In this document: positions 6,001-9,000 of the stretch, piece after piece
How the letters are laid out: every line of letters begins with the position of its first letter
Position numbering within the stretch: the first letter of the stretch is position 1
IMG/VR virus record: IMGVR_UViG_2698536477_000003
Strand: one strand, 5' to 3'
Source of the DNA: a virus
Taxonomy: Duplodnaviria; Heunggongvirae; Uroviricota; Caudoviricetes
DNA length: 52,420 bases
Made by a program: the position numbers

Positions 6001-9000
6001 GGGAGCGTTTGCCGCTGAAGTCATTATCTTCAAAATCAGCGGTCTGGTTTGCTTCAATCGTGATTTTACGGACCGCCGCAGCCGCTTTTGTTGCCTGAAT
6101 AGCGTCACCATTAGCATCAAAGCCCACAAGGTAGTCGGCCCAGTCTTCAATCCATTCTGCCAGTGACTTCTGGGAGTTACGCTCGCCGTTAACAGACAAC
6201 AGGGCAGAGAACGGTGCTGTCTTTTTCAGTTTGAGAGTGGCGGTGTTATCTGCGTGACCTGGTTCATCAATAGTACCCAGGTTAAGCACACTGACTGCTC
6301 GCATATTATCGGCATCGATAAAGCAGCGGGTGCCTTCATCTGCAAGATCTTTAGAATAACGGGTAAAGTCATCGATGCTGGCAGTGGAAAGCGCACCACG
6401 GAAACGGAAGCGATTTAAATTAAATTTTTCCAGATCATGAATGCGGAAATTCTCAGGCAATGCCACAGCATCGGCACCAATCTTACTGATAATTTCATTA
6501 ACACCCTGAGCAGAAATAAGGGCATGGATTTGATTAATTGCGGTTGCGTCTAAGTTCTGAGACATAATAAGTCCTCACTATATAAAGATATTCAGTGATG
6601 AGATAAATAATCGGTTAATTAAGAACGATATTAATGACCTGCTGCGCGGAGTTTTCCGTCAGGTTCACCGGCAAGAGTCAGTAATTGTCCCTGGTCTTCC
6701 TGCAGAATAGTCAGGCGACCACCGCGATTGACATACATCGGCGTTTCGGTGGTGTCTTCTTCGGAAATTTTCCCGCGGTTAGTCGGGCGAACATATGAGA
6801 GTTTGTGTTTGATTTTCACACGGTTCTCATCAAATGGTTCGATTTCCAGGTTGAGCGAGACCTTACCTTTGGTTTTCGTGTTCATCACACCGGAAGCGAC
6901 TTCACTGAGAACTGCGCCGATTTTGGTTTCAAATACGCCGCCGTCCAGCTCCCCGATAAATGCCTGCACATCAGTACTGCGTTCGCTAGCCATTTTGCTG
7001 CTCCTCATCATATCGACCCTGCAAGGTCGGTTGGTTTCTCCACAAAACAGAGAAGAACACCTGCGGTGGCAGCCGCCCGGATGGATTGGGTTATGAGCCC
7101 GTCGTCCGGTGATGCTCTTCTCTGTTTTGTAAAAAGAGCGGTACCAGCCGGAAGCAAGTGTACAAACTGGTACCGCCAAAGCAGTGGCTGTTGTGGTGAC
7201 AGGTGCTGATCTCCGGCTTGCGGTTATTTCAGACTCTCACGGGCGTTTAATTGTCCCGCCGAACAGCTCTTTTCCGCAATAGCTGCAATGTCTTTCGCGC
7301 ATCAGCCTGCGCCTTCACCACAACGCTGAGAGCACTTAGCCAGTTACGGCACCACACTTTGTCGCGGCTCCATAAATGCCCTCATCGTTGCACCCTGGTC
7401 TCTTCCCAGGCGTCAAACCGAATCGCCACGCTGGTTAGGCGTCTTATCAGCATCATCATTGACTTGCACATTCCGGCTACCTGGTTTGTTTGCCCGAGCA
7501 AGGAGTGGATTGTCCCCTTTAACGTCCCCAGACCGCTAACGACGCATGTGCCATACGCCGTGTTACAACCAAATTTTGTTAGTACCTTGTTTGTTGGTCT
7601 GGAAAGAAAGATAAAATGAAGTTGCGCATTATGCAAGTATTTTTGTTGCGAGATATGCAATTTGATGAGTAATGAAAAGCCACCTTCTGGTGGCTAATTG
7701 ATGAGGAGGTCGGGGTTAATTGTGTCGCTTAAGGGTTTGTGACTGACTGATTAAGACCTTCCCAAAGACCATAAACCGGTGTTCGTTTTCGCTGGTAATT
7801 CCCCATTCACGGTAAATCTGGTTATCAGAAATCACCAGTAGTTTGTCAGGTATCATTTGCAGTCGTTTGACATAAATTTTATCATCAAAACCAAACACAT
7901 AGATACCATCCCCATCAAACTGATTGATACTGATATCAACGAAGATGAGATCTCCTGGCTCAATGGTTGGACACATACTGTCCCCACGAACGTTGATAAC
8001 TTTAATGTGATTGGCTGGTCGTCCTCCAAACATCGATACAGCATTATCAGTTATGTATTCAATGGCATGAATCACATCAATGACATCACCGCCCTGGATA
8101 AGGCCATTTCCCGCACTGGCACTGACATCCAGCATTTCAATACGGAATACATCCTTCACCTGCGCAACATCCTCACCAGTACTGTTTTTACATACAGTAT
8201 TACTTTTGAAGTCTGAGGTAAAGAGATCTGCAATATCAACACCTAAGCTCCTGGCAATATTACTCAGGGCTTGTTCAGTGAATTGTTTCTGCTTACCTGT
8301 TTCCAGGCGTGAGATATTCGCCGCATCCACTCCTATTGCTTCAGCGAGATCGGCGATTTTCATGTTCTTCGCCTGGCGAAGTTGTCTGACTCGATTTCCT
8401 ATGTTCATGCGTTTATTACATTTCTTTATTGCGCGTTAAGCAAATCAACTTGCGCAAAATATTTGCGTGAAATAATATGCTTATCACGCAATATGTGGAG
8501 GTTATATGCAATCACCATTACGAAATGTGCGTAAGTCGCACGGATTTACTTTGCAGCATGTTGCTGCGGGTGTTCAGGTTAATCCAGCGACGCTGAGTCG
8601 TATTGAGAGACTGGAACAAATTCCATCTATCGATCTGGCAGAGCGTCTGGCCAATTTTTTTAAGGGAGAAATCAGCGAAATGCAGATTCTCTATCCTGCT
8701 CGCTTTCAATCTAGTCAAAACCGGAATGAGTTAAAACCACAGGAAAAGGAGGTAAGCCGTGGGTAAGCATCACTGGAAAGTAGAAAAACAGCCTGAGTGG
8801 TACGTGAAAGCTGTCAGAAAAACTATCGCGGCGTTGCCGGGTGGTTACGCTGAAGCAGCTGAGTGGCTGGATGTAACAGAGAACGCTTTATTCAATCGCC
8901 TTCGTGCCGATGGCGATCAGATTTTCCCGCTGGGATGGGCAATGATTTTACAACGTGCTGGTGGAACTCACTTCATTGCTGACGCTGTGGCGCAGTCAGC

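What the first reader, a model, noticed from the sequence alone, without database searches (positions are those of the whole stretch)
7042..7660. No recognisable N antiterminator; early-left leader carries a 15-bp perfect inverted repeat and further hairpins
Between the candidate OL/PL region (~7627-7670) and the first clear leftward gene (start 6993) the only ORF is a poorly protein-like 92-aa frame (7382-7660) with no arginine-rich N-terminal motif. The region contains a perfect 15-bp inverted repeat separated by ~60 nt (7042-7056 and 7117-7131) and a second 8-bp stem (ggtaccag...ctggtacc, ~7150-7185). Possibilities are a divergent N analogue, an RNA-based antitermination element of the HK022 put type, a terminator, or a small inserted inverted-repeat element.
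Basis: partly seen in the sequence, partly recalled or inferred. Interest (0 to 1): 0.45.

Follow-up and report, generated by a model that had tools for sequence, protein, structure and literature searches.

The report
Structured RNA leader replacing phage N
The "empty" stretch between this prophage's repressor gene and its first leftward gene is not a gene for an N-like protein. It is a stack of conserved RNA structures: a large pseudoknotted RNA not in Rfam 15, a terminator, and a long hairpin whose tip copies the anticodon arm of initiator tRNA. Together they probably control whether early transcription reads through.

Summary
The 15-bp inverted repeat, the second stem and the 92-aa ORF are all present, with small coordinate errors.

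None of the ORFs is credible. There is no N or Nun hit, and the 92-aa ORF starts inside the operator.

The leftward (minus-strand) leader has three conserved RNA modules:
1. **Structured RNA, 7569-7318.** About 250 nt, with helices P1-P6 and a pseudoknot. It has no Rfam 15 match. I found more than 260 copies in Enterobacteriaceae phages. These include mEp460, mEp390, cdtI, Stx2c phages, P1/P7/D6 (between trnI and ban) and phiV10-like phages. Covariation is strong: 97.7% of cells paired, 17 compensatory pairs, 0 of 500 shuffles as good. In half of 94 representatives it lies directly downstream of a cI-type repressor gene, the slot that putL occupies in HK022. Its first hairpin carries the put stem-I motif ACGGCG...CAUGCGUCG. 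However, a put covariance model does not detect it.
2. **Intrinsic terminator, 7177-7130.**
3. **Covarying hairpin, 7130-7042.** Its conserved tip GGGCUCAUAACCC equals the anticodon stem-loop of initiator tRNA.

My best reading, at about 40% confidence, is an RNA-based put-like antitermination leader. The function has not been tested.

The parts
7622..7660 (.). OL operators: TTGCGCATTATGCAA (7622-7636) and TTGCGAGATATGCAA (7646-7660). They overlap the leftward early promoter PL.
   Evidence: Three of the four occurrences of this motif in the window flank cI. Relatives carry TTGCG..CGCAA next to a TTATCT -10.
7603..7608 (-). Probable PL -10 hexamer, TTATCT. The transcript start is inferred at about 7596.
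   Evidence: Read directly from the sequence. Relatives L235, L256, L264, L270 and L329 have the same TTATCT 7-10 nt before the first hairpin of the RNA. This is an inference and has not been mapped.
7318..7569 (-). Conserved structured leader RNA, with no match in Rfam 15. Its elements are:
- P1: 7560-7552 / 7548-7540, loop GCA
- P2: about 7534-7528 / 7484-7475, with an apical three-way extension carrying CUCCUU
- Invariant strand GGUAGCCGGAAUGUGCAAG: 7481-7463
- P4: 7442-7439 / 7431-7428, loop CUAACCA
- Pseudoknot: 7436-7433 with 7419-7416
- P5: 7410-7406 / 7398-7394, loop GAAGAGA
- P6: 7383-7373 / 7338-7328
- Conserved 3' end AGCGUUGUGG: 7327-7318
   Evidence: - Model R1 scores 134 bits (E = 4e-41) at 7569-7392, the only copy in the window.
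- Covariation is shown.
- Homologues occur in P1, phiV10-like phages, mEp390 and Klebsiella phages.
- There is no Rfam hit.
- P6 was read from the sequence and from conservation of RAGAGCAYU...AGUGCUCUC. It has not been tested statistically.
7540..7561 (-). put stem-I-like hairpin, ACGGCGUAUGGCACAUGCGUCG. This is P1 of the RNA.
   Evidence: The motif ACGGCG-N(5-16)-CAUGCGUCG is shared with HK022 putL and HK639 putL. It occurs once in the window and 0.00 times in shuffles. The stem covaries: CGGCA/UGUCG, CGGUA/UGCCG, CGCCA/UGGCG.
7190..7317 (-). Spacer module of unknown role. It carries small hairpins (GCGCAGGCUGAUGCGC; CGGCGGGACAAUUAAACGCCCG). It is shared at 95% identity with Klebsiella phage IME207 and in part with many Klebsiella phages.
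   Evidence: Mosaic boundaries (query 200-347 and 302-347). No tRNA or Rfam match.
7130..7177 (-). Intrinsic terminator: a 13-bp G+C-rich stem (7177-7165 / 7149-7137) followed by CUCUUUUU.
   Evidence: about -22 kcal/mol for the 67-nt stretch. Equivalent hairpin plus U-run, with different stem sequences, occurs in 6 of 6 relatives.
7042..7130 (-). Its parts are:
- Basal stem: 7130-7111 / 7061-7042
- Arm A: 7109-7077, ending in GGG(7100-7098)-CUCAUAA(7097-7091)-CCC(7090-7088)
- Arm B: small variable hairpin, 7076-7063
   Evidence: - Alignments A7 and A9 give 95.3% of cells paired, 7 compensatory pairs and 0 of 500 shuffles as good.
- The tip is identical to the anticodon stem-loop of E. coli tRNA-fMet.
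- A flank-anchored scan finds GGGCTCATAACCCA in 135 of 158 cases, and the anticodon-like CAU in 156 of 158.
6991..7041 (-). The 3' end of the leader. It contains a conserved GGAGA (7041-7037), a small hairpin CGACCUUGCAGGGUCG (7029-7014), the Shine-Dalgarno sequence GAGGAG and the AUG of yfdP (6993-6991).
   Evidence: yfdP is named in RefSeq records and hits phrog_204.
7678..7695 (-). Terminator of the cI transcript (context). It separates cI from PL.

Best explanation
The 620-nt region between PL and yfdP is a non-coding, highly structured leader of the early-left transcript. It does not encode an N analogue.

When cI repression is lifted, PL (operators at 7622-7660) fires leftward. About 35 nt into the transcript, a conserved ~250-nt pseudoknotted RNA (7569-7318) begins. 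Its first hairpin resembles stem I of the HK022/HK639 put antiterminator RNAs.

I infer that this RNA folds co-transcriptionally and acts in cis on the RNA polymerase that made it, as put does. The polymerase would then read through the conserved intrinsic terminator 140 nt further on (7177-7130) and through later terminators of the operon. On this reading the RNA takes the place of N plus nutL.

It is a separate, conserved three-way hairpin placed just before the first ribosome-binding site. Its tip copies the initiator-tRNA anticodon stem-loop. I take it to be a processing or factor-binding element that sets the fate or translation of the read-through mRNA. An RNase III-type site like the one in the lambda N leader is the nearest analogy.

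**Shown:** the non-coding nature of the region, the structures, their conservation, position and strand.

**Inferred:** binding to polymerase, antitermination, and the role of the hairpin.
For: **1. No protein candidate.**
- Leader ORFs have no N or Nun hit, or none at all.
- The 92-aa ORF starts in the operator.
- Homologues differ by 1-, 2- and 5-nt indels.

**2. A real RNA family.**
- The invariant 19-mer occurs in more than 260 phage or prophage copies and in about 20 species, nearly all Enterobacteriaceae.
- On 94 sequences, 97.7% of cells pair, 17 pairs show compensatory change, and 0 of 500 shuffles reach that. Slid controls give 28-45%.
- The pseudoknot was not in the model, yet it is 98.6% paired, with CACC/GGUG, AACC/GGUU and GGUC/GACC.

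**3. The same slot as putL.**
- In 48 of 94 representatives a cI/S24-type repressor gene lies within 1.6 kb upstream. It is always on the same strand and usually ends 80-200 nt before P1, across many immunity types.
- In several relatives P1 begins 7-10 nt after the -10.
- In HK022, cI ends 110 nt before putL. Here the distance is 156 nt.

**4. Shared hairpin motif.** The put stem-I motif is present, with 0.00 expected by chance in the window.

**5. Terminators downstream.**
- A conserved terminator lies between the RNA and the first gene.
- Sense-strand terminator-like sites occur within 700 nt downstream in 61 of 88 representatives, against 33 of 88 on the antisense strand.

**6. Strand agreement.** The RNA sense agrees with the operon direction in every annotated context: the P1 ban operon, phiV10-like phages and mEp390.

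**7. An open question in print.** A 2025 study of a phage with related immunity noted that it has no N and only suggested put-type antitermination (PMC12315714).
Against: - A covariance model of 14 putL sequences recovers HK022 putR at 40 bits (E = 8e-7). It gives only 1.9 bits on the window RNA with filters off, and nothing on the P1, phiV10-like, Tyrion, mEp390 or Klebsiella copies.
- The reverse model finds nothing in HK022 or HK639.
- Most family members have CGGCA/UGCCG-type stems. Only ACGG...CAUG...CG is common to both families, so the exact put match is partly a property of the E. coli subgroup.
- The put A9-G35 platform is not conserved here.
- There is no second copy in the rightward operon.
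- In P1 the RNA lies 2.3 kb from the promoter, directly after a tRNA and directly before ban, with no terminator between.
- In phiV10-like phages it abuts a tRNA-Arg. That fits a stable, processed RNA as well as it fits a cis-acting one.
- No transcript or functional data were available.
Confidence: 0.4

Rival explanations
1. The 7569-7318 RNA is an independent, stable non-coding RNA that acts in trans. It would be released from longer transcripts by tRNA-type processing or ended by the 7177-7130 terminator. Possible roles are as a decoy or regulator of a host or defence factor. Its position after PL would serve only to express it early.
For: - It directly follows tRNA-Ile(CAU) in P1 and directly precedes tRNA-Arg(UCU) in phiV10-like and Klebsiella phages. 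RNase P or 3'-end processing would therefore free it (15 of 94 representatives are next to a tRNA).
- It moves as a discrete mosaic module among unrelated phage types.
- Sense terminators often follow it.
- It has long invariant single strands typical of a binding surface.
Against: - Half of the representatives sit exactly at the PL-proximal slot on the operon strand.
- In the window, the first genes of the operon would then have no evident way past the terminator.
- One relative, L230, repeats the RNA after an inserted opposite-strand gene. That suits a cis element better.
Confidence: 0.25
2. The RNA is a riboswitch or attenuator. It would sense a metabolite or a protein and decide whether the downstream terminator forms.
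For: It lies in a 5' leader, has a complex pseudoknotted fold with invariant joining strands, and is followed by an intrinsic terminator in the window.
Against: - The terminator is 140 nt away and belongs to a different mosaic module. That module also occurs without the RNA, for example in SfV.
- No alternative pairing between RNA and terminator was seen.
- Downstream sequence differs between contexts. In P1 the ban ribosome site follows directly.
- There is no common gene class downstream.
Confidence: 0.08
3. The leader structures have no specific effector role. They would only protect a long untranslated RNA from Rho and nucleases and provide an RNase III site. The terminator would be a simple attenuator that keeps early-left expression low.
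For: The 636-nt leader folds more stably than shuffled sequence, with z = -3.4. The long, nearly perfect basal helix of the 89-nt hairpin resembles RNase III substrates (established knowledge of the lambda N-leader site).
Against: Generic protection does not explain three things. These are 19- and 28-nt invariant stretches, a covarying pseudoknot, and an invariant tRNA-fMet-like tip across sequences whose stems have diverged.
Confidence: 0.15
4. A divergent N or Nun analogue is encoded in the leader, by the 92-aa ORF 7382-7660 or the 36-aa arginine-rich ORF 7247-7357.
For: The ORFs exist. The 36-aa frame ends in KTLQLLRKRAVRRDN.
Against: - No family hits in Pfam or PHROGs.
- The 92-aa start lies in the operator, upstream of the transcript start.
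- Both frames lie over the conserved RNA or across mosaic joints.
- Indels in homologues break the frames.
- No ribosome-binding site is visible by eye.
Confidence: 0.02
5. The 15-bp inverted repeat marks a small mobile inverted-repeat element (MITE-like) inserted in the leader.
For: It has perfect 15-bp terminal repeats about 60 nt apart.
Against: - It always sits at the same position, directly after a terminator and before the first early-left gene, in many phages.
- Compensatory substitutions and strand-specific G-U pairs point to selection on RNA pairing.
- The interior is more conserved than the arms.
- Copies per E. coli genome match prophage number: median 1.
Confidence: 0.01

Closest known systems
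HK022 / HK639 put RNAs (cis-acting processive antiterminator RNAs that bind the beta' zinc-binding domain of RNA polymerase)
   Same: - Found in lambdoid phages without N.
- Located on the early-left transcript directly after PL and the repressor gene.
- The first hairpin has the motif ACGGCG...CAUGCGUCG, with a G-U at the same stem position.
- Followed by terminators.
- Only one element is annotated putL-like in the HK639 record (an 'M3-like RNA' is annotated in its right operon).
- HK639-type putL also carries GUGGAGAUUCGGUC just 5' of stem I. This resembles GUGGCGAUUCGGUU in the window RNA.
   Different: - About 170-250 nt with six helices and a pseudoknot, against about 74 nt with two stems.
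- No recognisable put stem II.
- The put model scores 1.9 bits.
- The A9-G35 platform and the UAAAC triplex strand are absent.
- It also occurs outside PL leaders, in the P1 ban operon and in phiV10-like phages.
- The function is untested.
Lambda N / nutL with the N-leader RNase III site and tL1
   Same: The order of parts matches: promoter, RNA signal, terminator. A long double-stranded hairpin lies just upstream of the first ribosome-binding site.
   Different: There is no N-like protein. No boxA match within 2 mismatches occurs in the leader. The CGCUCUUUUUACAA at the terminator is not conserved in relatives.
tRNA anticodon-arm mimics in mRNA leaders (for example the E. coli thrS operator, which mimics the tRNA-Thr anticodon arm)
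   Same: A leader hairpin close to a ribosome-binding site has a 7-nt loop and closing pairs that copy a tRNA anticodon stem-loop. Here that is the initiator tRNA: GGG/CCC plus CUCAUAA, 13 of 13 bases.
   Different: - It is in a phage operon that encodes no synthetase.
- No partner is known.
- Only three stem pairs are copied.
- Positions 37-38 vary among AA, UA and UC.
- The comparison rests on sequence identity alone.
Phage-associated structured RNAs found next to tRNA genes (for example GOLLD and ROOL in Rfam)
   Same: A phage-borne, ornate RNA that is sometimes adjacent to tRNA genes and has unknown biochemical function.
   Different: There is no Rfam match, even at E = 10. It is much smaller, restricted to Enterobacteriaceae, and mostly promoter-proximal.

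Membership tests
put antiterminator RNA (HK022 type) | Sequence and structure match to the two-stem put consensus | tested here: not met
   Model R2 was built from 14 putL sequences using the cryo-EM pairing scheme of PMC9378689. It finds HK022 putR at 40 bits (E = 8e-7). It gives 1.9 bits (E = 1.1 in 711 nt, filters off) at 7516-7569, and nothing in five other family members.
put antiterminator RNA (HK022 type) | Stem I: CGGCG/CGUCG helix with CAUG 5' of the 3' strand | tested here: met
   ACGGCGUAUGGCACAUGCGUCG at 7561-7540. The pattern is expected 0.00 times in shuffles. However, the pattern was chosen after seeing both sequences.
put antiterminator RNA (HK022 type) | Lies on the early transcript just downstream of PL in a lambdoid phage that lacks N | tested here: met
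put antiterminator RNA (HK022 type) | Second copy (putR) in the rightward operon | tested here: not met
   Model R1 finds a single copy in the 52-kb window. Only one element is annotated putL-like in the HK639 record, which also annotates an 'M3-like RNA' in its right operon.
put antiterminator RNA (HK022 type) | Suppresses termination in cis through the beta' zinc-binding domain | not testable with these tools
   This needs reporter or in vitro transcription assays and rpoC mutants.
Lambda-type N/nut antitermination | N-family protein with an arginine-rich motif, encoded first after PL | tested here: not met
   Four leader ORFs give no N or Nun hit in Pfam or PHROGs at E <= 0.1.
Lambda-type N/nut antitermination | boxA (GCUCUUUAACAA-like) in the leader | tested here: not met
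   There is no match within 2 mismatches in 6990-7700. The boxA-like CGCUCUUUUUACAA at 7140-7127 has an insertion and is not conserved.
Intrinsic (Rho-independent) terminator | G+C-rich hairpin immediately followed by a U-run on the transcribed strand | tested here: met
   7177-7137 plus CUCUUUUU. The feature is conserved in 6 of 6 relatives despite different stems. Termination itself has not been measured.
Any described RNA family (Rfam 15) | Covariance-model match | tested here: not met
   There are no hits in 6950-7720 at the gathering thresholds, and only two chance-level hits at E <= 10.
tRNA / tRNA-like gene | Cloverleaf recognised by ARAGORN or the Rfam tRNA model | tested here: not met
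   Only the 13-nt anticodon stem-loop is shared with tRNA-fMet.
Miniature inverted-repeat mobile element | Dispersed copies at unrelated sites; terminal repeats not constrained as RNA | tested here: not met
   The hairpin keeps a fixed position in the operon. It shows compensatory and G-U changes.
RNase III processing site | Cleavage by RNase III within a helix of about 20 bp | not testable with these tools
   Only the 20-bp basal helix can be shown.

The most novel reading that the evidence does not exclude
The 7569-7318 RNA is the founding member of a second, much larger class of RNA-only processive antiterminators. These would be RNA-polymerase-binding leader RNAs, distantly related to put through one hairpin. 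They would drive early gene expression in a large share of N-less temperate phages of Enterobacteriaceae, including Stx2c-converting phages, and would also be used in the P1 ban operon. The adjacent hairpin would be a functional mimic of the initiator-tRNA anticodon arm, recognised by a translation or tRNA-targeting factor.
Probability: 0.3. Interest if true: 0.8.

Novelty: new variant of a known kind. Interest (0 to 1): 0.62.

Why it matters
How lambdoid phages without N get past their early terminators is known experimentally only for HK022 and HK639. For the large SfV/mEp460/Stx2c group it has been left as a guess (PMC12315714).

This work yields a defined, covariation-supported RNA with clear helices, a pseudoknot and invariant strands at exactly the right place. 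That turns the guess into a directly testable hypothesis: mutate and compensate the helices, then measure read-through.

- If the RNA binds RNA polymerase, it would be a new natural polymerase-modifying RNA. It would also be a control point for induction of Stx2c phages.
- If it does not, it is still a widespread phage RNA family missing from Rfam.
- The initiator-tRNA look-alike hairpin is a second, separate lead. I found no described counterpart for it.

Tried and rejected
- **Rfam.** I searched at the gathering thresholds and at E <= 10. Nothing relevant turned up.
- **ARAGORN.** It finds only the three known tRNAs at 18 kb.
- **Leader ORFs.** Pfam and PHROGs gave no N or Nun hit. The phrog_33599 hit of the 49-aa frame over the inverted repeat only shows that other annotators called the same frame.
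- **put membership.** I rejected it by cross-searching with two covariance models.
- **boxA.** Rejected.
- **SfV orf33 as an N analogue.** SfV has this ORF in the place of the RNA. It is an acidic protein with no motif, and nothing can be concluded from it.
- **tRNA-like reading of 7190-7317 and of the Tyrion 3' extension.** I tried this by eye. It was not convincing and I dropped it.
- **Loop-to-sequence pairing.** Pairing between the CUCAU loop and AUGAG near the yfdP Shine-Dalgarno sequence, or at 7385-7381, is only 5 bp. It is not conserved in relatives and I did not pursue it.
- **Wasted scan.** One viral-contig scan used a wrong spacer length.
- **Literature.**
  - Searches for the sequences and for related descriptions found nothing.
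  - King et al. 2011 (J Bacteriol 193:5784), which lists put-like sequences, is not held.
  - I therefore cannot exclude that it mentions this type.
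Full report
**Setting.** The window is an SfV/mEp460-like lambdoid prophage of E. coli.
- Relevant genes are a cI/S24 repressor (7716-8408, minus), cro (8506-8766), a CII-like gene (8759-9310), yfdP (6631-6993, minus), yfdQ and yfdR.
- The 731-nt stretch 6990-7720 is 98% identical to phage mEp460. Parts of it occur in 2836 of 5426 complete E. coli genomes.
- A terminator follows cI (7695-7678).
- The motif TTGCnnnnnnnGCAA occurs at 7622-7636, 7646-7660 and 8429-8443, on both sides of cI.

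**Observation.**
- The 15-bp perfect inverted repeat is real, with arms at 7042-7056 and 7116-7130.
- The second stem is a perfect 10-bp repeat at 7138-7147 / 7167-7176.
- The 92-aa ORF exists.

**No protein.**
- The 92-aa, 36-aa and 49-aa minus-strand frames and the 122-aa plus-strand frame give no N, Nun or other characterised family in Pfam or PHROGs.
- The 92-aa frame begins in the operator, upstream of the probable -10 (TTATCT, 7608-7603).
- Homologous sequences in other phages differ by indels of 1, 2 and 5 nt.

**A conserved structured RNA at 7569-7318 (minus strand).**

*Discovery and distribution.*
- A sensitive DNA search showed that window 7318-7574 is shared with unrelated phage types. 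These are P1, P7, D6, SJ46 and RCS47; phiV10 and O157 typing phage 10; Tyrion; Klebsiella and Salmonella phages; and mEp390.
- In P1 it lies between trnI and ban on the ban-operon strand.
- In phiV10-like and Klebsiella phages it runs straight into a tRNA-Arg.
- In mEp390 it lies between the repressor gene and the first leftward genes.
- Scans with the invariant 19-mer GGTAGCCGGAATGTGCAAG and with longer versions of it gave more than 260 copies in viral contigs. The 19-mer alone gave 24 genomic loci in about 20 species. All are Enterobacteriaceae except two metagenome bins.
- Rfam 15 has no match.

*Structure.*
- P1 is a 9-bp hairpin with loop GCA.
- P2 has a variable apical part carrying UCCUU.
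- An invariant single strand follows.
- Next come a variable hairpin and then P4, with the 7-nt loop YUMACCA. That loop pairs with GGUG/GGUU/GACC downstream to form a pseudoknot.
- P5 has loop GAAGAGA, and P6 is a closing 3' helix.

*Statistics.*
- On 31 hand-chosen sequences, 94.5% of cells pair and 16 pairs show changes on both sides.
- On 94 matches aligned by model R1, 97.7% pair, 17 pairs show such changes, and 0 of 500 shuffles reach this. Slid controls give 28-45%.
- That alignment is fitted to the model. The pseudoknot was not part of the model, yet it is 98.6% paired, with three of four pairs compensatory.

**Where the RNA sits.**
- Of 94 representatives below 90% identity, 48 have a cI-type repressor gene within 1.6 kb upstream. 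It is always on the same strand, mostly ends 80-200 nt before P1, and spans many immunity types.
- Several relatives start P1 7-10 nt after a TTATCT -10 next to TTGCG..CGCAA operators.
- Fifteen representatives are next to a tRNA.
- One relative, L230, has two copies, the second after an inserted opposite-strand gene.
- The window has one copy.

**Relation to put.**
- HK022 putL and the annotated HK639 putL share ACGGCG-N-CAUGCGUCG with P1 of the window RNA. I verified the HK022 putL numbering against the cryo-EM paper (PMC9378689).
- The motif occurs once in the window and never in shuffles. The pattern was defined after the comparison.
- HK639-type putL also has GUGGAGAUUCGGUC 5' of stem I, which resembles GUGGCGAUUCGGUU of the window RNA.
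- Against membership: a model of 14 putL sequences finds HK022 putR (40 bits) but gives 1.9 bits on the window RNA and nothing on five relatives. Model R1 finds nothing in HK022 or HK639.
- Most family members have other covarying stem sequences. The common core is therefore only ACGG...CAUG...CG.
- I conclude that the RNA is not a put family member. It may work like one.

**The terminator.**
- As minus-strand RNA, 7177-7137 forms a 13-bp stem followed by CUCUUUUU.
- In six relatives the same place holds a strong hairpin of different sequence plus a U-run, at -19 to -33 kcal/mol for the folded stretches.
- Family-wide, sense-strand terminator-like sites within 700 nt downstream occur in 61 of 88 representatives, against 33 of 88 on the antisense strand.

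**The inverted repeat.**
- The repeat is the base of an 89-nt three-way hairpin that begins right after the U-run.
- In 20 representatives, 95.3% of cells pair and 7 pairs change on both sides (for example C-G 12 versus G-C 8). None of 500 shuffles reaches this.
- G-U pairs occur only in the minus sense. It is therefore an RNA structure of the leftward transcript, not a mobile element.
- The apical 28 nt is almost invariant.
- Its tip GGGCUCAUAACCC equals positions 29-41 of E. coli initiator tRNA. I checked that sequence at 100% identity in all 5426 genomes, with a median of four copies.
- A scan anchored only on the flanks gave GGGCTCATAACCCA in 135 of 158 cases and GGGCTCATTCCCCA in 14. The anticodon-like CAU is kept in 156 of 158.
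- The module of terminator plus hairpin also occurs without the upstream RNA, for example in SfV.
- I have no tested function for the tip. Its possible partners are only ideas: 30S/IF3, MetRS, tRNA-fMet nucleases and RNase III.

**Judgement.**
- That the region is a non-coding stack of conserved RNA structures is well supported (about 0.9).
- Processive antitermination by the 250-nt RNA is the best single explanation, at about 0.4. The support is its slot, the lack of N, the put-like hairpin and the terminator that follows.
- A stable trans-acting RNA is a serious rival, because of the tRNA-adjacent contexts.
- I could not read King et al. 2011, so prior mention of this type cannot be ruled out. 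No paper in the searchable library contains these sequences.

Noticed in passing
window 9667-9855 and 10527-10714 (+): There are two tandem isrK + C4 antisense-RNA pairs (Rfam, 58-82 bits). Each lies inside the 5' part of a long ORF call (9307-10476; 10473-11315) whose C-terminal half looks like a Rha/antirepressor protein. This appears to be a duplicated P1/P7-type immI antirepressor control unit in a lambdoid prophage. The N-terminal parts of the ORF calls are probably RNA, not protein.
   Followed up: no
window 18058-18309 and 19721-19933 (+): Three tRNA genes (Met-CAT, Arg-TCG, Arg-TCT) are followed by an STnc100 match (158 bits). This is the arrangement typical of the late region of Stx-type phages.
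   Followed up: no
L230 3998-4161 and 4805-4966 (minus strand): One viral contig carries two copies of the leader RNA about 800 nt apart. Each is followed by an opposite-strand membrane-protein ORF, and both lie between the repressor gene and the leftward operon.
   Followed up: partly
L129 (HK639) 34340-34313 versus window 7429-7411: HK639-type putL elements carry GUGGAGAUUCGGUCAGUCGA immediately 5' of stem I. A similar string, GUGGCGAUUCGGUUUGACG, lies 130 nt 3' of P1 in the window RNA, where it contains the 3' strand of the pseudoknot. This is a second shared motif, in permuted order.
   Followed up: partly
window 7262-7240 (minus strand): The hairpin CGGCGGGACAAUUAAACGCCCG resembles the 5' half of put stem I, including UAAAC. 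It lies in the spacer module that is shared with Klebsiella phages. The put model gives it only 0.6 bits.
   Followed up: partly
window about 7505-7495 and relatives (apical loop of P2): A UCCUU / CUCCUU motif, like the 3' end of 16S rRNA, is conserved in the otherwise variable tip of P2 across the family.
   Followed up: no
L371 (SfV) 2745-2720, minus strand: The SfV leader lacks the 250-nt RNA. It contains CACCGGGAGGCACCCGGCACCA, the same string as in the STnc100 match of this window (19.8 kb). It also has an AGCGUUGUGGUGAAUGCGG segment like the 3' end of the leader RNA.
   Followed up: no
window 7041-7037 (minus strand): A GGAGA (Shine-Dalgarno-like) string directly after the 89-nt hairpin is conserved in nearly all relatives, although no start codon follows it at the usual distance in the window.
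   Followed up: no
L160, L199, L222 (viral contigs): A third variant of the hairpin motif, ACGGCGCAATCAATCATGCGTCG with an 8-nt spacer, recurs in three contigs in a different sequence context. It may be another put-related element.
   Followed up: no
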